Below are positions 57,351-64,000 of a stretch of 64,000 nt of DNA, in pieces. The notes under the pieces are model-generated. The model had not been told where the DNA came from. It worked only from the letters and a program-made list of their open reading frames with translations, and did no database searches. A program made the position numbers and the translations under genes. Every line of letters begins with the position of its first letter. Within the stretch, counting starts at the first letter, position 1. Origin of the DNA: an uncultured Gemmatimonadaceae bacterium (GTDB lineage: Bacteria; Gemmatimonadota; Gemmatimonadetes; Gemmatimonadales; Gemmatimonadaceae); contig CAVXGK010000002.1 of assembly GCA_963761305.1 (NCBI GenBank), positions 2,624,001 through 2,688,000 on the forward strand, written 5' to 3'.

Positions 57351-58838
57351 CTATGCCGGTTCGGGCTGTGGCAGAAGTCCCATGATCTCGGCAGAGCGTT
57401 CGAGAATCGACTCGAGCCAATCGAAGATGGTCGAATTGTGCAGCTGCCGCCGCATGCGATGCATACGCCTCCGGCGTTCTTCCGGGGACATCGACAGTGC
57501 GGCATGAATCGCCGCGACGAACCCGTCGATGTTGAACGGATTGATCAGCATGGCGCCGTCGATCTCTTCGGCCGATCCGGTGAATCGGCTCAACAGCAAC
57601 ACGCCGCGCTCGTCCAGTTGGCAAGCGACGAATTCCTTGGCGACGAGATTCATTCCGTCCTGCAGCGACGACACGATGCACATGTCGCCGGCCCGGTAGA
57701 CCGCGGCGAGCAGATCGGCGTCGACGTTCTCGCTGATCAGCACGATGGGAGTCCAGTGGCTGTTGCCGAAACGGGCGTTGATCGAGATCACCGCGTCGAC
57801 GACGTCGCGCTCGAGCGTCGTGTACGCGGGGACTTCGCTGCGCGACGGCGTGCACACGAAGATAAATGTGAACTGCTCGCGAAGCTCGCTCGACTCGGTC
57901 CACAGTGTGTCGAGCGCGCGAATGCGCTCGAGAATCCCCTTCGTGTAATCGATCCGGTCGACACAGACGCCGAGCTGACGCGTGGGCGCGTGGCGTTTGC
58001 GCAAGGTCCGGGCGAGCGTCCGCGAAGCGCGCGACCCGGCCATTTCCTCGAACTTGGCGACGTCGATGCTGATCGGAAACGCGCCGACGTGGACGGTGCG
58101 GCCGCGGAACTGAACGACTTGATTCGCCCGGTCGATCTTCGCTTCGGGAACGAATCGCTCGACACAGTCGACGAAGTTGGTCGCGTAGCGTTCGATCTGA
58201 AATTCGATGAGGTCGTTGCCGAGGATTCCGAGCAGCACGGCCTCGTTCGTTCGCGACGGCAGGAGCTGGAGAATGTCCGGCGGCGGAAAGGGGATGTGCC
58301 AGAACTGATGGATGAACTGCGGCGGACGCATCGCCCGCAGCATCGCCGGGACGAGCGCGAAGTGATAATCCTGTATCCAGACGGTCGCCTTTCCCGACGA
58401 GCGTTCCGCCTCGTCGGCCACCGCGTGGGCGAATCGCAGGTTGACGTCGCGATACCGGTTCCAGTACTCCGTGCGATACTCGAAGTGCTGGATGAGCATG
58501 TGGCAGAGCGGCCAGAGCGCGCGGTTCGCGAACCCATGGTAGTAGCCGTTCACGTCGGCTTCGTCGAGCCAGACGCGTCGCAGCGTGTAGGACTGCTCGC
58601 CTTCCGGCACCGCCACGCGGCCCATCTCGTCGGCGACCTCGCGGTCCGCCGAACCCGATCCCCACGCCACCCATGTCCCGTGCGTTCGGCGCATCGTGGG
58701 ATCGAGCGCGCTCACCAAACCACCGGCCGGCTGCTTTACTTCAGGCGTGCCGTCGACGCCATGGAAATGCTCGTACGGCTCCCGATTGGAGACAAGAATG
58801 AACTTGCTGTCGCCGAGGTAGTGCGTGAAATCGAGCAT
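57351..58838 (-). CDS. otsA: trehalose-6-phosphate synthase
   Basis: AGGLV, YYHGFAN.LWP, QDYH, HIPFP, DRIDYTKG, DGMNLVAKE. Confidence 0.95.
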   Translation of the reverse strand: MLDFTHYLGDSKFILVSNREPYEHFHGVDGTPEVKQPAGGLVSALDPTMRRTHGTWVAWGSGSADREVADEMGRVAVPEGEQSYTLRRVWLDEADVNGYYHGFANRALWPLCHMLIQHFEYRTEYWNRYRDVNLRFAHAVADEAERSSGKATVWIQDYHFALVPAMLRAMRPPQFIHQFWHIPFPPPDILQLLPSRTNEAVLLGILGNDLIEFQIERYATNFVDCVERFVPEAKIDRANQVVQFRGRTVHVGAFPISIDVAKFEEMAGSRASRTLARTLRKRHAPTRQLGVCVDRIDYTKGILERIRALDTLWTESSELREQFTFIFVCTPSRSEVPAYTTLERDVVDAVISINARFGNSHWTPIVLISENVDADLLAAVYRAGDMCIVSSLQDGMNLVAKEFVACQLDERGVLLLSRFTGSAEEIDGAMLINPFNIDGFVAAIHAALSMSPEERRRRMHRMRRQLHNSTIFDWLESILERSAEIMGLLPQPEPA

Positions 58839-58949
58839 TAGGGGCGAAAGAGGTGCAACTGGCGTGCCCGCTACGGATTGTGTCCGAGCGCACTGCGCAA
58901 CGCATCGGAACTGGCGCGCGGCGGCGGGCAGCACGATCATTTGTCCCCC

Positions 58950-59924
58950 GTGAGCGACACGATCATCACGCGCGCACCAACGCGCATCGACTTCGGCGGC
59001 GGATGGACCGACGTGCCGCCCTACTCGGACGAAGTCGGCGGCTTCGTGTGCAACGTGGCCATCAATCGGTACGCAACAGCGACGGTGACGCGTTCGGTGC
59101 ACTCGATCGTCGCGCCGGTGACCGCGTCGTCATCGGCCGGCGATCAGTCCATCGCGCTCGCCGCCGCGCGGCGCTTCCATTTGTCCGGCGCTCACATCGA
59201 CGTACACAGCGATTTCCCGGCGGGTGCCGGATTGGGCGGGTCGTCGGCGGTGGGCGTCGCTATCGTTGCCGCGCTCAGCGCGGTGAGCGACGGTTCGACC
59301 GAGTCCAACGACGATCGCACTTGGCTCGCCGAACTGAGCCGAGCAGTCGAGATCGGCGACCTGGGCGTTCCGGGTGGGCGGCAAGATCACTACGCCGCGG
59401 CGTACGGTGGCGCGCTCGGTCTTCGGTTTTCGCGCGGGCGCGTGGACGTGCGACCCATCCCACTGAGCGACGCGCTGCGCTCCGAGCTCGAGCGGCGATG
59501 CATCGTGATCTACACGGGACAGAGCCGCATTTCCGGCGAGACGATCGATGCGGTGCTCGGCGCGTACGCCCGACGCGAGCCGCGCGTGCTGGCGGCGCTC
59601 GAAGGCATGCGCGAGACAGCCGAGCGGATGGCGACTGCGCTCGAGGCGGGCGACCTCGACGCCCTCGCGGCGTTGGTTGCCGAACAGTGGATGCACCAGC
59701 GCTCGCTCCATCCGGCGATTCCGACGCCGCTGATCGACGAGATCATCGAACGAGGCACCAACGCAGGAGCAGCGGGCGCAAAAGCGCTCGGCGCGTCGGG
59801 CGGCGGATGCGTGCTGCTCATCGCGCGCCCGGAGCGGGTCGACGAAGTGCGCACCGCGATCGCGCCGCTCGGCGAGCTGCTGTCGTTCGCGGTGGATGAA
59901 CACGGAGTCCAGCGTTGTCGATAG
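58950..59924 (+). CDS. GHMP-family sugar kinase (HddA/fucokinase-like)
   Basis: RAPTRIDFGGGWTD, PAGAGLGGSS, GRQD, GASGGG. Confidence 0.88.
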   Translation: MSDTIITRAPTRIDFGGGWTDVPPYSDEVGGFVCNVAINRYATATVTRSVHSIVAPVTASSSAGDQSIALAAARRFHLSGAHIDVHSDFPAGAGLGGSSAVGVAIVAALSAVSDGSTESNDDRTWLAELSRAVEIGDLGVPGGRQDHYAAAYGGALGLRFSRGRVDVRPIPLSDALRSELERRCIVIYTGQSRISGETIDAVLGAYARREPRVLAALEGMRETAERMATALEAGDLDALAALVAEQWMHQRSLHPAIPTPLIDEIIERGTNAGAAGAKALGASGGGCVLLIARPERVDEVRTAIAPLGELLSFAVDEHGVQRCR

Positions 59925-61072
59925 CGCGCGGCGACGCGGCGGCGTTGACGCGCGAATTGGTGCGCGTCGATTCGCGCAATCCCTCGCTCGTTCCGGGCGG
60001 GCCGGGAGAGAACGCCGTCGCCAAGACGCTCGCCGCGGTGCTTCAGGAGTGGGGACTGCGCGTCGACCTTCAGCACGCCGCACCGCAGCGCCCGAACGTC
60101 ATCGCGCGAGCGGGCCGCGCCGGCGGACGCACGTTGATGTTCAACGGACACCTCGACGTAGTCGGCGTGGACGGCATGACGCACGCGCCGTGGGACGCCT
60201 TTCAGCGTGAAGGGCGCATCTACGGGCGCGGGTCGGCGGACATGAAGGCGGGCGTCGCGGCGATGTGCGCCGCGGCGGCGCGCGCGGCCGACGAGCTCGA
60301 GGGAGAAGTGGTGATCACGGCGGTCGTCGACGAAGAGTACGAGAGCATCGGGACGCGAGCGCTGGTCGCGGCCGGCGTTCGAGCCGACGCGGCGGTCGTC
60401 ACTGAGCCCACAGGGCTCGCGATCATGCCGGCGCATCTCGGATTCGTCTGGGCAGACGTCACCATGCACGGACGCGCGGCGCACGGCAGCCGATGGGAGA
60501 TCGGCGTCGACGCCATTCGACACGCCGGCTACTTCCTCACCGAGTTGGATCGGATCGATGCCGAGGATTTGCCGCAGAAATCGCATCCGCTGCTTGGCAG
60601 GCCGTCGGTGCACGCGTCGCTGATCGAAGGCGGATCGGGGATGTCGACCTATCCCGATCGCTGCTGCGTTCGCATCGAACGACGCACGATTCCCGGCGAG
60701 AAACCTGCCGACGTCGAGCGCGAGCTTCGCGACGCGTGCGACCGTGTGGCCGCGTACCGGCCGGGCTTCAGCGCCACTGTGCGAATCACGTTCGCGCAAG
60801 AGCCGTCGGACGTAGCGGTGGAAGCGCCGATCGTGCGCGCGCTCTCGACGGCGATCTGCGAAGACGACGACGATCCGCGCATCGCCGGCATGTCGGCGTG
60901 GACCGACGCCGCGATTCTCAACGCGGCCGGGATTCCAGCCGTCTGTTTCGGGCCGGGCGACATCGCGCTCGCCCATTCGGCGGAGGAGTACGTGCCGGTG
61001 TTCGAGATCGAACGAGCGACGACGATTCTCGCGTCGCTCGCCAAGCGTTGGTGCTCCGTCCGCATCTCGTGA
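59915..61072 (+). CDS. ArgE/DapE-family (M20) deacylase
   Basis: NGHLDVV, GRGSADMK, DEE, EP, GRAAHGS, AHSAEE. Confidence 0.92.
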   Translation: MSIARGDAAALTRELVRVDSRNPSLVPGGPGENAVAKTLAAVLQEWGLRVDLQHAAPQRPNVIARAGRAGGRTLMFNGHLDVVGVDGMTHAPWDAFQREGRIYGRGSADMKAGVAAMCAAAARAADELEGEVVITAVVDEEYESIGTRALVAAGVRADAAVVTEPTGLAIMPAHLGFVWADVTMHGRAAHGSRWEIGVDAIRHAGYFLTELDRIDAEDLPQKSHPLLGRPSVHASLIEGGSGMSTYPDRCCVRIERRTIPGEKPADVERELRDACDRVAAYRPGFSATVRITFAQEPSDVAVEAPIVRALSTAICEDDDDPRIAGMSAWTDAAILNAAGIPAVCFGPGDIALAHSAEEYVPVFEIERATTILASLAKRWCSVRIS

Positions 61073-61290
61073 GTCCGCTGAGTCATCGCGACTACGACAC
61101 CCTCGAGAGCGCAGTCTCGAGAGGAGCGCGCGTCGCGATCAGCCGCCCGGGCCGCCGTGAGCTCGTGCTCGTGCCGTTGACGCTCAAGTTGGACGACGGG
61201 CGCGAGGTGATCACCGCACGCAACCCGACGACCGGCCACGAGCTGACCATCTTCCTCGACGAAGTGGAACGAATTGAGGCAGTGACGTGA
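61069..61290 (+). CDS. small Sm/WYL-like protein resembling the Rho modulator Rof (YaeO)
   Basis: GTGA-coupled on both sides; PLSHRDYDTLESA helix followed by ~5 beta strands ending IFLDEVERIE. Confidence 0.6.
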   Translation: MSPLSHRDYDTLESAVSRGARVAISRPGRRELVLVPLTLKLDDGREVITARNPTTGHELTIFLDEVERIEAVT

Positions 61291-61913
61291 GCCGCGCGAG
61301 GGACGGGAGTGGAGATGGGGTGCCGAGACCGACTCCCGAGGTGCAGCAACCGGCGCAGGGGGCGGAAACCGCGCTGCGGCGGATCGCGATCTTCGCCGAC
61401 GAGTCGTGCCTGGGCAACGGTCGCGAGGGGAGTAACCCGGGCGGGGCGGCGGGCGTCATCGAGTATGTGAGCCCGTCGGGCCGGCTCTCGCGGCACGACT
61501 ACTGGGTGTCGGAACCGGCCACGACGAACAACCGCATGGCGCTGCGCAGCGCGATCGAGGCGCTGAACGGCATCGCGCGGAAAGGCGCGCGGTTCCGCGT
61601 CGAGTTCACGAGCGACTCGCAGTATCTGATCAAAGGAATGAGTGAGTGGGTGCACGGCTGGATCGCGCGTGGGTGGCGCAAGAAGGACGGCCCGATACTG
61701 AATCTGGAGTTGTGGCAGGATCTGGTCGAAGCGACGCGCGGGCACGTCGTGAGTTGGCGGTGGGTGCGCGGCCACGAAGGACATCCGCAGAACGAATACG
61801 CGAACGACCTCGCCGTGCGCGCCGCGAAGGAGCAGTCGTCGTCGAAGGGTATCGTCGACTCGCACTTCGATGAGTGGCTGGCGGCGGAGAGAGAAAAGGG
61901 ACGAATCAAATGA
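61287..61913 (+). CDS. rnhA: ribonuclease HI with atypical active site
   Basis: FADESCLGN, TTNNRMAL, SDSQY, NLELWQ, WVRGHEGHPQNE. Confidence 0.9.
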   Translation: MSRARDGSGDGVPRPTPEVQQPAQGAETALRRIAIFADESCLGNGREGSNPGGAAGVIEYVSPSGRLSRHDYWVSEPATTNNRMALRSAIEALNGIARKGARFRVEFTSDSQYLIKGMSEWVHGWIARGWRKKDGPILNLELWQDLVEATRGHVVSWRWVRGHEGHPQNEYANDLAVRAAKEQSSSKGIVDSHFDEWLAAEREKGRIK

Positions 61914-62092
61914 AGAAGCTATTGGTGGCACTGATCCTCGGGCTGGCGATGGGGTATCACTGGGGATACGACGAAGGGAGCGACGGCAAGCCGTCGATCG
62001 CGCTTCGCGTGCTCGACAAGTTCGGCGCGTCGAAGCTCAGGAACGCCCAGGAGGCCCAGGACAAGCGCGTCGAGGAAGCCAGCAAGCCTTGA
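61910..62092 (+). CDS. small membrane-anchored protein
   Basis: ATGA overlap with rnhA; MKKLLVALILGLAMGY. Confidence 0.7.
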   Translation: MKKLLVALILGLAMGYHWGYDEGSDGKPSIALRVLDKFGASKLRNAQEAQDKRVEEASKP

Positions 62093-62181
62093 CCCGGAGT
62101 CGGCCCGGTAGTCGATGAACGACCTTGCGCGCTAGGTTGGTGCGAAGGCTCTCCCCTTTTCCGACAGTCGGCACCGAAGAC

Positions 62182-62973
62182 ATGGACAACCTCGATCGGA
62201 TGTACCGCCATCTGGTGAGGGTGGTGCGTTCGCGGTTCCCGCAGCATCTCGTTCAACCGTTCAGCGTCTCCGACCTCAACCAGACGATCCTTCCATATCG
62301 TCTGCACCGGCGAGAGCTCGGCCTCGACACGAACGACGACTACGAGCTCACGCTCACCGAGCTGGTCTCCGGGACGCGGGACTATCTCATCGTCGACGAC
62401 ACGATGCGCGACACACTCGGCGCGGCACTCGCCGAGGTGAATCCGGACCCGTCGGCGTTCAAGAAGTTCGCGTCGTCGATGGTCGCGCTCTCGCCAAGCG
62501 CGCTGCGCAGTCTGGACGTCGGTCTGGACGAAGGGGCGGGCTCGTCCATCCTGCCGGGTGTGCGTTCCGCCGCAATGTCGCCGGCGACGACCGCGGCTGC
62601 CGCGGGAGTCGCCGCGGCAGCCGCGCCGGCAGCCCCGGCTCGAGGCGCCGCTCGGCCTGCACCCTCCGCCCCTGCGCCGGCAGCGGCGCCAAAGGCACCC
62701 AAAGCACCCACGACCCCGGCGACTTCACCCGCTCCAGCGATGCCGACCCCCACGACGACAACAAAAACCAGCGGCGGTGTACGAGTCGTTGTCCCTCAGG
62801 CGGGCGATCGATGTCGATCGTGCAGTGAACCGTTGCCCGCCGGGCGTCCGATCACGTTCTGCCCACACTGCGGCTCGAACGTGACGACGTTGAACTGTCC
62901 AGCGTGTGGCTCGGAGTTGGAACTAGGATGGAAGTTCTGTCCATCGTGCGGGCGGCCGGCCGCGACGCGGTAG
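62182..62973 (+). CDS. double zinc-ribbon domain protein
   Basis: Globular N-domain, Ala/Pro linker, then CRSC/CPHC/CPAC/CPSC. Confidence 0.85.
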   Translation: MDNLDRMYRHLVRVVRSRFPQHLVQPFSVSDLNQTILPYRLHRRELGLDTNDDYELTLTELVSGTRDYLIVDDTMRDTLGAALAEVNPDPSAFKKFASSMVALSPSALRSLDVGLDEGAGSSILPGVRSAAMSPATTAAAAGVAAAAAPAAPARGAARPAPSAPAPAAAPKAPKAPTTPATSPAPAMPTPTTTTKTSGGVRVVVPQAGDRCRSCSEPLPAGRPITFCPHCGSNVTTLNCPACGSELELGWKFCPSCGRPAATR

Positions 62974-63014
62974 CGCCGCCACAACGGAAGAAGGTTGTCC
63001 GCCGGCGCGCCGCG

Positions 63015-64000
63015 TTGCGCGTCGCAGGTTCGCTCGCGGCGTTCATCCTCGTCGCGACGGCGTGCATGACTCCCGCCGGACGCACTTCGGGTGCGCGCCG
63101 GGTGTCGCCGAGAAACCGAAGTCGCGCCTCGACGCAGCCGGCGCAGCTTCAGCAGCGCGGTTGGCGCGTCTCGACCGGCGAACACATCGATTTGTGGCTG
63201 CACGGCTTCGCGCTGCTGACGAGCGACACGGGGCGCGTACCGTTCTTCGCGCGCGGGTACAAGCAAGAGATCACGGCGATCAAGCGACAGAAGAACGCGT
63301 ATTCGCTGCTCGACGCCAACCAACCGGAGCTGTCGGCTCGCTTCGCGACGAATCCCGAGCTCGCCAACGCGCAGTTCCTGGCGATGTACTTCACGACCTT
63401 TCCGGAGATCGTGAGCGCGACGGACTACTTCATTCGCTCCGGCGGCAACCCGCGCTCGGCCGCCGATCCGAGAATTCAGCAGGAGATCGCTCTCCTCGCC
63501 GCGAACTTTCGCACCGACGCCGACCGCAAGTGGCTTCGACTGTTCGTGCAGAGCCTGGATGATGAGAGCAAGAAGTTCTATCACGACTACTGGATGGGCG
63601 AGCAGCAGACACGCGGCGCGGCGCTCGCCCAGGTCGTGCAGCAGTGGACCAACACGTACTACCCGAAGCTTTCGCGTTTCCTGAACAACACACAGCAAGC
63701 GTCCGGCGAAATCATCCTCTCGCTGCCGTTGGGCGGCGAAGGGCGCACGGTGAACAACGGGAAGCAGTCGAACACCGTGGCCGTCGAATTCCCGAAGACG
63801 GCAGCCGACGCGCCCAACGCGCTGTTCGCGTTCGTTCACGAGGCCGTGGCGACGATCGTCGACGGCGTGATTCGCGACAACACGACGCCGGCCGAGCAGC
63901 GTTCCGGCGTGACGTCGGGCTACGTGGGGAACGGCGCCGTCCGCGGCGGAGCCTTGCTGCTGCAACACATCGCGCCCGAGTTGGTGCCGGCCTACATGCG
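63015..64000 (+). CDS. hypothetical lipoprotein (partial, runs off the window)
   Basis: Open frame from TTG 63015: ..FILVATAC lipobox, EHIDLWLHGFA, LPLGGEG, FVHEAV; no stop before the window end. Confidence 0.7.
   Translation, partial: MRVAGSLAAFILVATACMTPAGRTSGARRVSPRNRSRASTQPAQLQQRGWRVSTGEHIDLWLHGFALLTSDTGRVPFFARGYKQEITAIKRQKNAYSLLDANQPELSARFATNPELANAQFLAMYFTTFPEIVSATDYFIRSGGNPRSAADPRIQQEIALLAANFRTDADRKWLRLFVQSLDDESKKFYHDYWMGEQQTRGAALAQVVQQWTNTYYPKLSRFLNNTQQASGEIILSLPLGGEGRTVNNGKQSNTVAVEFPKTAADAPNALFAFVHEAVATIVDGVIRDNTTPAEQRSGVTSGYVGNGAVRGGALLLQHIAPELVPAYM

What the first reader, a model, noticed from the sequence alone, without database searches (positions are those of the whole stretch)
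61069..61913. Rof/YaeO-like mini-protein translationally coupled to an atypical RNase HI: possible R-loop/termination module
Seen: a 73-aa ORF (the ORF track shows it only as the tail of a longer frame) overlaps both the upstream gene and rnhA by GTGA. Its N-terminus PLSHRDYDTLESA matches the E. coli Rof N-terminus as I recall it (PINCDDYDNLELA). Its beta-strand pattern ending G..LTIFLDEV parallels Rof's G..RELRLDKI and also fits a stand-alone WYL/Sm fold. Established: Rof inhibits Rho, and Rho and RNase HI are the two main R-loop-limiting factors. Inference: a Rho inhibitor co-translated with RNase H could couple relaxed termination to R-loop removal. I know of no such operon described, and Rof is known mainly from Proteobacteria.
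Basis: partly seen in the sequence, partly recalled or inferred. Interest (0 to 1): 0.72.

Follow-up and report, generated by a model that had tools for sequence, protein, structure and literature searches.

The report
Stand-alone WYL/Rof-like protein beside RNase HI
A real 73-residue gene lying just ahead of the RNase HI gene in one order of Gemmatimonadota encodes a small Sm-fold protein that resembles both WYL domains and the Rho inhibitor Rof; it likely binds single-stranded nucleic acid or, less likely, Rho, and its function is untested.

Summary
Window 61069-61290 (+) is a 73-codon ORF whose GTG overlaps the stop of an M20 deacylase gene (GTGA) and whose TGA overlaps the GTG of rnhA. It is a real gene: one copy in 95 of 101 genomes of its family, and in two families of one order.

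An AlphaFold model (pLDDT 91.8) gives an N-terminal helix plus a five-stranded Sm-like barrel. The best structural matches are WYL domains (Z 9.6-10.6), then Hfq (9.1-9.7), then V. cholerae YaeO/Rof (8.4).

The protein passes no Pfam threshold. Among 29 relatives, 6 give sub-threshold full-length WYL hits and 1 a ROF hit.

The recalled Rof N-terminus was correct (7 of 13 identical, including Rof's Rho-contact residues Y13, D14, E17). However, the Tyr is not kept in the sister family.

rnhA follows the gene in 54 of 54 (family f1) and 26 of 26 (f2) genomes compared. It does not in a third family, and sister families have the same RNase HI without the small gene.

The "atypical" RNase HI is the known LC9-type DEDN enzyme (PDB 4IBN, E 1e-71).

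Verdict: a new stand-alone family of the WYL/Rof Sm-like superfamily, function open. Rho inhibition is a live but unsupported reading.

The parts
61069..61290 (+). Small gene, 73 codons plus stop: stand-alone Sm-fold protein of the WYL/Rof superfamily (helix 6-18, strands 21-25, 32-42, 45-51, 58-62, 68-72)
   Evidence: Sequence and translation. Homologues. AlphaFold model, pLDDT 91.8. Fold matches.
61287..61913 (+). rnhA, 208 aa: type 1 RNase H of the LC9 'DEDN' kind, with a ~30-aa N-terminal and ~25-aa C-terminal extension. It is the only RNase_H Pfam match in the genome.
   Evidence: Pfam PF00075, 3.8e-30. PDB 4ibn, E 1.1e-71, with alignment. One match in the own genome. Motifs conserved in relatives.
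59915..61072 (+). Upstream gene: ArgE/DapE-family M20 deacylase, 385 aa. Its stop overlaps the small gene's start.
   Evidence: Pfam Peptidase_M20 and M20_dimer. NCBIfam TIGR01910, 231.6 bits over the cut-off of 217.6. Upstream of the small gene in 11 of 12 f1 loci and in 0 of 20 f2/f8 loci.
61910..62092 (+). Small predicted membrane protein (MKKLLVALILGLAMG...). Its ATG overlaps the rnhA stop (ATGA). The ORF listing gives a longer 72-aa form starting at GTG 61874.
   Evidence: Sequence. tblastn hits in 8 of 12 f1 loci begin at residues 11-15 of the 72-aa form, which fits the ATG at 61910. No Pfam family over threshold.
62125..62973 (+). Protein of 282 aa with a C-terminal double zinc ribbon, the conserved downstream neighbour of rnhA in this order
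   Evidence: Pfam DZR, 2.7e-10. Found in 11 of 12 f1 loci, in several f2 loci, and beside rnhA in the three f1/f2 genomes that lack the small gene.
58878..59924 (+). GHMP-family kinase gene, overlapping the M20 gene by 10 nt. It is the likely first gene of the same transcription unit (inferred).
   Evidence: Pfam GHMP_kinases_N and GHMP_kinases_C. Coordinates.

Best explanation
The ORF is a real, order-wide conserved gene for a stand-alone Sm-fold protein of the WYL/Rof superfamily, and this protein is predicted (not shown) to bind single-stranded nucleic acid and likely to act on the same substrates as the RNase HI encoded directly downstream.

Shown:
- The gene exists, is conserved, and overlaps its neighbours.
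- Its confident model is an N-terminal helix on a five-stranded Sm-like barrel.
- The nearest solved folds are WYL domains that bind ssDNA, then Hfq.
- rnhA follows it on the same strand throughout two families.

Inferred:
- Like nearly all Sm-fold relatives, it uses its barrel loops to hold a single strand. These loops carry conserved Arg21, Arg26 and Arg45 and the P-x-T-G hairpin.
- The strand would be, for instance, the displaced DNA strand or the RNA tail of an R-loop.
- Being made from the same mRNA as RNase HI, it would help that enzyme find or process hybrids.

It is not an obligatory subunit. RNase HI of the same type exists without it in sister families.
For: Fold. AlphaFold pLDDT 91.8, pTM 0.76. 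WYL domains of CapW, BrxR, DriD and PafBC are the best matches: Foldseek E 4e-4 to 9e-3, TM 0.76-0.84; VIA Z 9.6-10.6 over 70-73 of 73 residues. Hfq follows at Z 9.1-9.7. Several of those WYL entries are ssDNA complexes by title (9c5g, 7tzv, 8tp8).

Sequence. 6 of 29 family members give full-length sub-threshold Pfam WYL hits, best 20.4 bits against a cut-off of 21.8. hhalign of the family against a canonical WYL protein of the same genome aligns the whole domain, E 0.0036.

Conserved arginines. Arg21 is invariant and Arg26 nearly invariant across 29 diverse members; Arg45 is invariant in the 31-sequence f1 alignment. By the VIA register (model 3-73 = DriD 145-218), they lie near DriD's phosphate-contacting Arg176/178 and Arg189 (PMC10853764, passages read). 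This mapping is approximate.

Context. rnhA is the next gene on the same strand in 12 of 12 f1 loci. In places I compiled by hand, it follows in 54 of 54 f1 genomes. In 26 of 26 f2 genomes it lies within 1 kb downstream (12 directly, 14 after a 0.67-0.96 kb gap). The upstream neighbour changed meanwhile: M20 in f1, a ThiL-like AIRS protein in f2.
Against: WYL residues replaced. The residues that define ssDNA binding in canonical WYL domains are missing. W-Y-L aligns with E-V-I, and R-x-F-R-x-D-R-I aligns with L-T-I-F-L-D-E-V. There is no Arg between residues 52 and 67 of the window protein.

Charge. The family is not basic: net charge median -1, range -4 to +2, in 40 members. The two canonical WYL domains of the same genome are +5 and +9, and E. 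coli Rof is -8.

No threshold passed. The window protein has no Pfam or NCBIfam hit.

Linkage not obligatory. A tandem-USP gene lies between the two genes in 3 of 3 gapped f2 loci tested. One f2 locus (L034) and both f8 loci have no rnhA within 3 kb. In 20 of 20 further loci, RNase HI carries the same motifs with no small gene beside it; 17 are from families f3 to f8, and 3 are from f1/f2 genomes that gave no small-gene match.

Coupling not specific. 4-nt overlaps join all genes of this operon.

No fusion found. No fused form was found among longer proteins, which is weak evidence by the tool's own note.
Confidence: 0.35

Rival explanations
1. It is a Rof analogue. The N-terminal helix and the loop before strand 3 would dock on the primary RNA-binding site of the Rho N-terminal domain and block termination. 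Co-expression with RNase HI would then couple relaxed termination to R-loop removal.
For: Architecture. Same stand-alone layout and size as Rof: helix plus Sm-like barrel, 73 against 84 aa.

Fold. Rof/YaeO chains are among the fold matches: 8w8d_d TM 0.75/0.71, rmsd 2.2 over 70 columns; 8ptm_a E 7e-3; 6jie Z 8.4 over 64 residues.

Sequence alignment. hhalign aligns the family collinearly with E. coli Rof over 64 columns, E 0.0059. With the f1 alignment only the first 17 residues align, E 0.035.

Contact residues. In that register L4, H6, Y9, D10 and E13 fall on Rof I8, C10, Y13, D14 and E17, and E46 falls on Rof E50. Those Rof residues contact Rho Q85, R87 and R88, and Y13A and D14A abolish Rof action (PMC11018626, section 7 read and passages). 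L4, H6 and Y9 are invariant in the 31-sequence f1 alignment, and D10, L12, E13 and A15 are at 90% or more. E13 is invariant and E46 nearly so in the wide alignment.

Rho side. The segment S-P-S-Q-I-K-R-F is invariant except for Ile in 29 Rho N-domains of the family.

Other leads. The nearest named cluster by language-model features is a 79-aa 'Rho-binding antiterminator' cluster: score 0.89, 188 shared features, ROF on 19% of members. This is a lead only. One of 29 members hits Pfam ROF over its full length, E 0.008. Rho_RNA_bind is present in 301 of 301 genomes of the phylum.
Against: No ROF match. The window protein gives no Pfam ROF hit at E up to 1, and none lies at this locus in the genome.

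Fold rank. Fold similarity is lower than to WYL and Hfq.

Sister family differs. In f2 the Rof-like Tyr is M, L or F, the His is W or T, and the Pro sits elsewhere (RWTPxxMDQLERA). The f1 match may therefore be partly coincidental.

L-E is not Rof-specific. An L-E at the same helix positions also occurs in a canonical WYL protein of this genome. E13 may therefore be structural.

Charge. The family is near neutral, whereas Rof is strongly acidic.

Expression. Rof is an accessory, stress-linked gene. This is a core gene in a housekeeping operon.
Confidence: 0.25
2. It is an Hfq-like RNA chaperone. The Sm barrel would assemble into a ring and bind small RNAs or mRNA ends, in a phylum where Hfq was not found.
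For: Hfq chains score Z 9.1-9.7, rmsd 1.7-2.0, over 60-63 residues. This is within 1 Z unit of the WYL matches. Pfam Hfq was found in 0 of 301 genomes of the phylum, while the control genomes rang.
Against: There is no Pfam Hfq hit for the protein or for any of 29 relatives at E up to 10. The gene is confined to one order plus one further family (f8), although the whole phylum lacks Hfq, so there is no complementary distribution. The protein is not basic. Ring formation was not tested.
Confidence: 0.1
3. Its function is unrelated to RNase HI or Rho. It would be a small ligand- or protein-binding Sm-fold module whose position before rnhA is inherited gene order only.
For: The whole block (small gene, rnhA, membrane protein, zinc-ribbon protein) is conserved in the order. 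Adjacency may therefore be inertia. The linkage is broken in f8 and in one f2 genus. A USP gene can sit between the two genes. The WYL family also includes small-molecule sensors: a c-di-GMP-sensing WYL regulator is listed, of which I saw only the title and the start of the abstract.
Against: The adjacency outlasted replacement of the upstream neighbour and holds across two families, in 54 of 54 and 26 of 26 genomes compared.
Confidence: 0.2

Closest known systems
Rof / YaeO (Pfam PF07073), Rho-binding antiterminator of Pseudomonadota
   Same: Stand-alone protein of 70-85 aa with an N-terminal helix on an Sm-like barrel. N-terminal P-[LI]-x-[HC]-x-D-Y-D-x-L-E-x-A motif in family f1. A Glu before strand 3 aligns with Rof E50. 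G...L-D-x-[VI] near the C-terminus.
   Different: No Pfam ROF match. Z is 8.4, against 10.6 for WYL. It lacks Rof's R-x-L-R before L-D-K-I. It is near neutral rather than acidic. It is found in Gemmatimonadota, not Pseudomonadota. It is a core gene beside rnhA, not beside yaeP. Rho binding is unknown.
WYL domain (Pfam PF13280) of DriD, PafBC, CapW, BrxR
   Same: Best fold match over the whole protein, including the helix. Sub-threshold full-length Pfam hits in 6 of 29 relatives. The L-x-x-A-x-x-x-x-x-R-[VI] start, a basic strand 1-2 loop and the L-D-x-[VI] end are shared.
   Different: It stands alone, with no HTH or WCX partner domain. The W-Y-L and R-x-F-R residues that hold ssDNA in DriD are replaced. 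It is not basic.
Hfq (Pfam PF17209)
   Same: Sm fold with an N-terminal helix and similar size, Z 9.1-9.7.
   Different: No sequence match, and no Hfq-type motifs seen. The oligomeric state is unknown.
LC9-RNase H1 (PDB 4IBN), for the downstream gene
   Same: E 1.1e-71 over residues 18-200. The same A-D-E-S-C-L-G-N, N-R-M-A-L, D-S-[QR]-Y and Y-A-N motifs. The same C-terminal tail.
   Different: None of note. The window enzyme is an ordinary member of this known type. The paper title 'atypical DEDN active site motif' was seen only in a reference list.

Membership tests
Rof (PF07073) | Scores over the Pfam ROF gathering cut-off (27.6 bits) | tested here: not met
   No ROF hit for the window protein at E up to 1. 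The genome-wide ROF search has its best match, E 0.95, at another place. One of 29 relatives reaches 16.7 bits.
Rof (PF07073) | Stand-alone Sm-like barrel preceded by an N-terminal helix | tested here: met
   Model pLDDT 91.8. Rof chains 8w8d_d TM 0.75, 8ptm_a E 7e-3. 6jie Z 8.4, rmsd 2.1, 64 aligned.
Rof (PF07073) | Rho-contact residues of helix 1 (C10, Y13, D14, E17) and of the loop with K47, N48, E50 | tested here: inconclusive
   H6, Y9, D10, E13 and E46 align with C10, Y13, D14, E17 and E50. They are conserved in f1. In f2 the Tyr and His positions change. K47 and N48 have no clear counterpart.
Rof (PF07073) | Binds the Rho N-terminal domain and inhibits termination | not testable with these tools
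   Needs a binding or termination assay with the cognate Rho.
WYL domain (PF13280) | Scores over the Pfam WYL gathering cut-off (21.8 bits) | tested here: not met
   No hit for the window protein, and none at this locus in the genome search at E up to 1. 6 of 29 relatives score 14.5-20.4 bits over the full length.
WYL domain (PF13280) | WYL-type Sm barrel with a preceding helix | tested here: met
   9c5g_B Z 10.6, rmsd 2.1, 72 aligned. 7t8k_A Z 10.1. 8tp8 Z 10.0-10.2. 6sj9_B Z 10.0. Foldseek E 4.2e-4, TM 0.84.
WYL domain (PF13280) | W-Y-L motif and R-x-F-R-x-D-R-I strand that contact ssDNA | tested here: not met
   hhalign to a canonical WYL protein of the same genome puts E-V-I on W-Y-L and L-T-I-F-L-D-E-V on R-V-F-R-V-D-R-I. 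The roles of the DriD residues come from PMC10853764.
WYL domain (PF13280) | Joined to an HTH or other effector domain | tested here: not met
   The protein is 73 aa and stands alone. Relatives are 69-80 aa. No longer relative was found (weak by the tool's own note).
Hfq (PF17209) | Pfam Hfq match | tested here: not met
   None for the protein or for 29 relatives. None in the genome.
Hfq (PF17209) | Hexameric ring | not tested
   No oligomer prediction was run.
LC9-type (DEDN) type 1 RNase H, for the downstream gene | RNase_H Pfam match; Glu directly after the first Asp; Ala at the usual Glu place; Asn at the last Asp place | tested here: met
   PF00075, 105.4 bits. Alignment to 4ibn, and to E. 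coli RNase HI chains that read 'nrmal' and 'nercn' at those places. The E. coli residue numbers are recalled.

The most novel reading that the evidence does not exclude
This is the first Rof-type Rho antagonist outside Pseudomonadota. It is hard-wired in one operon with RNase HI, so that every relief of Rho termination comes with the enzyme that removes the resulting R-loops. It also shows that Rof is a stand-alone offshoot of the WYL domain.
Probability: 0.2. Interest if true: 0.75.

Novelty: new variant of a known kind. Interest (0 to 1): 0.45.

Why it matters
Stand-alone Sm-fold proteins with a known role in bacteria are few; Hfq and Rof are the ones known to me (recalled). Rof is reported only from Pseudomonadota.

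This is a third, unnamed family, and it sits between WYL and Rof in sequence and fold. It is a core gene of a little-studied soil order and is tied to the only type 1 RNase H of the genome.

If it binds Rho, it widens the range of Rho regulation and links termination control to R-loop removal. If it binds single strands for RNase HI, it would be a bacterial counterpart of the targeting help that RNase HI gets from SSB in E. coli (recalled). Either result can be tested with a 73-residue protein.

As it stands the finding is a well-defined orphan family, not a demonstrated module.

Tried and rejected
Complex prediction. I ran the Rho N-domain (alignment A3, 29 rows) with the small protein (alignment A2). 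The result was score 0.00 in two runs, no verdict.

Genome-contig scan. The search for related loci with A2 on genome contigs returned an error, because no stretch was conserved enough.

Fused forms. The search among longer proteins found none at E up to 0.001 (weak by the tool's own note). The longer hits in the representative search (P0092, P0124, P0133, P0131) look like read-through or chimeric calls, not fusions.

Toxin-antitoxin reading. 8 of 29 relatives give local sub-threshold PhdYeFM_antitox hits, best 20.4 bits against a cut-off of 29.8. These cover residues 9-38 only. No toxin gene is adjacent and the fold is an Sm barrel, so I rejected this reading.

HU/IHF reading. The profile search of PDB sequences gave only HU-beta, E 0.65, through ARNPTTGHELTI against GRNPQTGKEITI. 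The motif is not kept in f2 (LPMTGEEL) and the fold is not HU. I take it as a local hairpin likeness.

Pre-toxin TG hit. E 0.079, sub-threshold. I took it as noise.

Link between RNase HI type and the small gene. This is rejected. All 29 loci with the small gene and all 20 loci without it have the same motifs.

Complementary distribution with Hfq. This is rejected, because Hfq was found in 0 of 301 genomes.

Rho presence as a discriminator. It is uninformative, because Rho_RNA_bind is in 301 of 301 genomes.

dN/dS beyond the genus. Synonymous sites are near saturation: median pN/pS 0.54 over 55 pairs, maximum 1.08. Only the within-genus value of 0.17 is useful. A first version of that script crashed.

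Promoter and terminator scan of 58500-63200. Nothing above the shuffles.

Earlier notes of this scan. None for this genome or sequence.

Literature. A search for WYL + Rof + Sm-like found 0 papers. I found no paper on this family.
Full report
**1. The observation**

The window holds a 73-codon ORF at 61069-61290 on the + strand. The ORF listing reports it only as the tail of a 265-aa frame, 60493-61290, that overlaps the M20 gene out of frame.

The DNA reads ...ATCTCGTGAGT... at 61069. The GTG 61069-61071 therefore overlaps the TGA 61070-61072 of the upstream gene (59915-61072). At 61287 the DNA reads ...ACGTGAGC..., so the GTG of rnhA overlaps the TGA of the small ORF.

The translation is VSPLSHRDYDTLESAVSRGARVAISRPGRRELVLVPLTLKLDDGREVITARNPTTGHELTIFLDEVERIEAVT.

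Such overlaps join every gene of this operon. The GHMP kinase and M20 genes overlap by 10 nt. The rnhA stop overlaps the ATG at 61910 of a small membrane protein. The coupling is real but not special to this pair.

**2. It is a real gene**

- A search of 5.8 billion proteins gave 54 hits among 54 candidates, at 49-96% identity. Most are 73 aa. The two that carry an organism name are called hypothetical proteins of Gemmatimonadaceae.
- A profile of 31 sequences found one copy in 95 of 101 genomes of the family. This tally includes two unpublished genomes, G007 and G034; without them it is 93 of 99.
- Across 301 genomes of the phylum the gene was found in 177. By family: f1 67 of 69, f2 101 of 125, f8 3 of 4. 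Elsewhere there are only weak single matches: f3 1 of 3, f4 1 of 6, f6 1 of 23, f7 2 of 47, all at E above 1e-4. Families f5 and f9 to f12 have none (G007 is included).
- An exhaustive HMMER search of 1.84 billion cluster representatives found only 78 with E up to 0.001. The family is narrow.
- In other genera the gene has its own ATG and often a GGAG-like site upstream.
- dN/dS is 0.17 for the within-genus pair. More distant pairs are saturated.

**3. What the protein is**

*Family scans.* Pfam and NCBIfam give no hit for the window protein.

*Fold.* The AlphaFold model built on the alignment is confident: pLDDT 91.8, pTM 0.76. It has a helix at 6-18 and five strands.

| Match | Foldseek | VIA-align Z |
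|---|---|---|
| WYL domains (CapW, BrxR, PafBC, DriD) | E 4e-4 to 9e-3, TM 0.76-0.84 | 9.6-10.6, 70-73 residues aligned |
| Hfq | E from about 2e-2 | 9.1-9.7, 60-63 residues aligned |
| Rof / YaeO | 8ptm_a E 7e-3, TM 0.63; 8w8d_d E 1.2e-2, TM 0.75/0.71 | V. cholerae YaeO 6jie 8.4, 64 residues aligned |

By the tool's own note, rows within 1 Z unit are tied. The fold is therefore an Sm-like barrel of the WYL/Hfq/Rof kind, with WYL nominally first.

*Relatives scanned one by one (29 members).*
- 6 give full-length sub-threshold WYL hits, best 20.4 bits against a cut-off of 21.8.
- 1 gives a full-length ROF hit, 16.7 bits against a cut-off of 27.6.
- 8 give a local PhdYeFM hit.

*Profile comparison.* The family aligns with E. 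coli Rof over 64 columns at E 0.0059. It aligns with a canonical WYL protein of the same genome over 65 columns at E 0.0036. A second canonical WYL protein gives E 0.34.

*Language-model features.* The nearest named clusters are a 79-aa 'Rho-binding antiterminator' cluster (score 0.89, ROF on 19% of members) and an 81-aa cluster carrying WYL on 14% and ROF on 11% of members. These are leads only.

I conclude that this is a separate family within a WYL/Rof Sm-like superfamily. It has Rof's stand-alone architecture.

**4. The Rof likeness in detail**

Seven of 13 positions are identical.

In the hhalign register:

| Window protein | E. coli Rof |
|---|---|
| L4 | I8 |
| H6 | C10 |
| Y9 | Y13 |
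| D10 | D14 |
| E13 | E17 |
| E46 | E50 |

Said et al. 2024 (PMC11018626; section 7 read, other passages) report the following:
- Rof I8, C10, Y13, D14, E17 and E50 contact Rho Q85, R87, R88 and S82/S84.
- Y13A and D14A abolish Rof's effect.
- Rof is restricted to Pseudomonadota.

On the Rho side, the corresponding segment S-P-S-Q-I-K-R-F is invariant apart from the Ile in 29 Rho N-domains of this family. The paper attributes such conservation to RNA binding.

Three things weigh against the reading:
- In the sister family f2 the motif is RWTPxxMDQLERA or LTPDALDALERA. The Tyr becomes M, L or F, and the His and Pro positions are not kept.
- A canonical WYL protein also has L-E at the same helix positions.
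- The family is near neutral (median net charge -1 in 40 members), whereas Rof is -8.

**5. The WYL likeness in detail**

In DriD the ssDNA is held by Tyr168, Ser172, Arg176/178, Arg189, the Tyr of the WYL motif, and Arg204, Trp206 and Arg207. Residues outside the WYL domain also contribute (PMC10853764, passages read).

In the alignment to a canonical WYL protein, W-Y-L falls on E-V-I and R-V-F-R-V-D-R-I falls on L-T-I-F-L-D-E-V. That half of the site is gone.

The conserved Arg21 and Arg26 and the Arg45 of f1 lie roughly where DriD has Arg176/178 and Arg189. This uses the VIA register and is an approximate mapping. Half of a basic site may therefore remain.

**6. Context**

*Family f1.*
- All 12 loci, the window's own included, have rnhA directly downstream.
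- 11 of 12 have the M20 gene upstream.
- 8 of 12 have the small membrane protein.
- 11 of 12 have the zinc-ribbon protein.
- 11 of the 12 end in [AG]TGA.

*Hand comparison of the places listed.*
- f1: rnhA starts within about 130 nt downstream on the same strand in 54 of 54 genomes.
- f2: rnhA lies within 1 kb downstream in 26 of 26 genomes, 12 directly and 14 after a gap of 0.67-0.96 kb.

*Family f2, 18 loci fetched.*
- 17 have rnhA downstream and none has the M20 gene.
- The upstream gene is a ThiL-like AIRS protein in 4 of 4 tested.
- The gene in the gap is a tandem universal stress protein in 3 of 3 tested.

*Family f8.* The two f8 loci have no rnhA nearby, and it lies on other contigs.

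*Loci without the small gene.* I fetched 20 further loci around rnhA. Seventeen come from families f3 to f8, and three come from f1/f2 genomes that gave no small-gene match. None has a small-gene match at E up to 10. The rnhA/zinc-ribbon pair persists in the three f1/f2 genomes without the small gene.

The linkage is old and outlasted a change of upstream neighbour. It is nonetheless neither universal nor needed by RNase HI.

**7. The RNase HI**

- It is the only RNase_H Pfam match in the genome.
- It matches PDB 4IBN at E 1.1e-71 over residues 18-200.
- The alignments show Glu directly after the first Asp (A-D-E-S), Ala where E. coli has its catalytic Glu (N-R-M-A-L), and Asn where E. coli has its last Asp (Y-A-N).
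- The best E. coli chains are variants that read the same at those places. The E. coli residue numbers are recalled.
- This is the LC9-RNase H1 type with a DEDN motif. I saw its paper only as a title in a reference list.
- All 29 loci with the small gene and all 20 without it share these motifs and a conserved C-terminal tail. The 'atypical' enzyme is a known, class-wide type and is independent of the small gene.

**8. Other partners and rivals**

- Rho_RNA_bind is in 301 of 301 genomes of the phylum.
- Hfq is in 0 of 301.
- RNase_H is in 297 of 301.

None of these patterns separates the hypotheses. No fused form was found. The complex prediction gave no verdict and is listed only under Tried and rejected.

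**9. Reading**

The gene encodes a stand-alone WYL/Rof-type Sm protein. I put the readings as follows:

| Reading | Confidence | Basis |
|---|---|---|
| Binds single-stranded nucleic acid, connected with RNase HI | about 0.35 | The base rate of Sm-fold function, the best fold matches, the remaining arginines, and the conserved neighbour |
| Rof-type Rho antagonist | about 0.25 | The helix and E46 correspondences and the shared architecture |
| Hfq-like chaperone | about 0.1 | Fold similarity and the absence of Hfq from the phylum |
| Function unrelated to either neighbour | about 0.2 | Linkage that may be inherited gene order only |

All functional steps are inferred. Only the gene, its conservation, its fold class and its linkage are shown.

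**10. Novelty**

The family passes no curated threshold, and I found no paper on it. It is a new variant within a known superfamily. Its interest is moderate, and would be high only if Rho binding is confirmed.

Noticed in passing
window 61287-61913: rnhA is the LC9-type 'DEDN' RNase H1 (PDB 4ibn, E 1.1e-71). Glu follows the first Asp, Ala stands at the usual Glu place, and Asn at the last Asp place. A conserved ~25-aa C-terminal tail (S-x-G-x-V-x-S-x-F-x-x-W-L) is also present. The same holds in 29 of 29 and 20 of 20 RNase HI loci of the class that I examined, with or without the small gene.
   Followed up: yes
L037 (G000:C2:2399131-2402565), about 1940-1950; also L015: The genome's main rho gene changes frame after about codon 148. 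The relative G030 reads through in one frame, and tblastn splits the own gene into frames 1 and 2. This is an assembly error or a real frameshift. The N-terminal domain is intact.
   Followed up: partly
L016:565-2601 (+), G000 contig 1: A second, intact Rho-like protein of 678 aa. It has a ~310-aa N-terminal extension, a Rho_RNA_bind domain and an ATPase domain. Most genomes of the class give two Rho_RNA_bind matches.
   Followed up: partly
phylum-wide: Pfam Hfq was found in 0 of 301 Gemmatimonadota genomes searched, although the control genomes rang.
   Followed up: partly
window 61216-61251 (residues 50-61 of the small protein): ARNPTTGHELTI resembles the tip of the HU/IHF DNA-binding arm, GRNPQTGKEITI (HU-beta, E 0.65). 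One database protein, P0129, is an HU N-terminus joined to this family's C-terminus exactly at the motif. It is probably a chimeric assembly. The motif is not kept in family f2.
   Followed up: partly
window 61910-62092 and 62125-62973: A small membrane protein starts by ATGA overlap with the rnhA stop. A 282-aa protein follows, with an unassigned N-domain, an Ala/Pro-rich linker and a double zinc ribbon. Both travel with rnhA in this order, also in genomes without the small gene.
   Followed up: partly
L018, L022, L028 and other f2 loci: In family f2 the small gene follows a ThiL-like AIRS gene, often with a 4-nt overlap. In about half of the genomes a tandem universal-stress-protein gene is inserted between it and rnhA.
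   Followed up: partly
L068 (G000:C1:1743177-1746380): Two adjacent canonical WYL-domain proteins of 324 and 329 aa, in a PafB/PafC-like pair arrangement (naming by recall).
   Followed up: no
L001 (G095:C1:120065-123283): The M20 and rnhA genes of this same-genus genome are split over several frames in tblastn. This suggests indel errors in that assembly.
   Followed up: no
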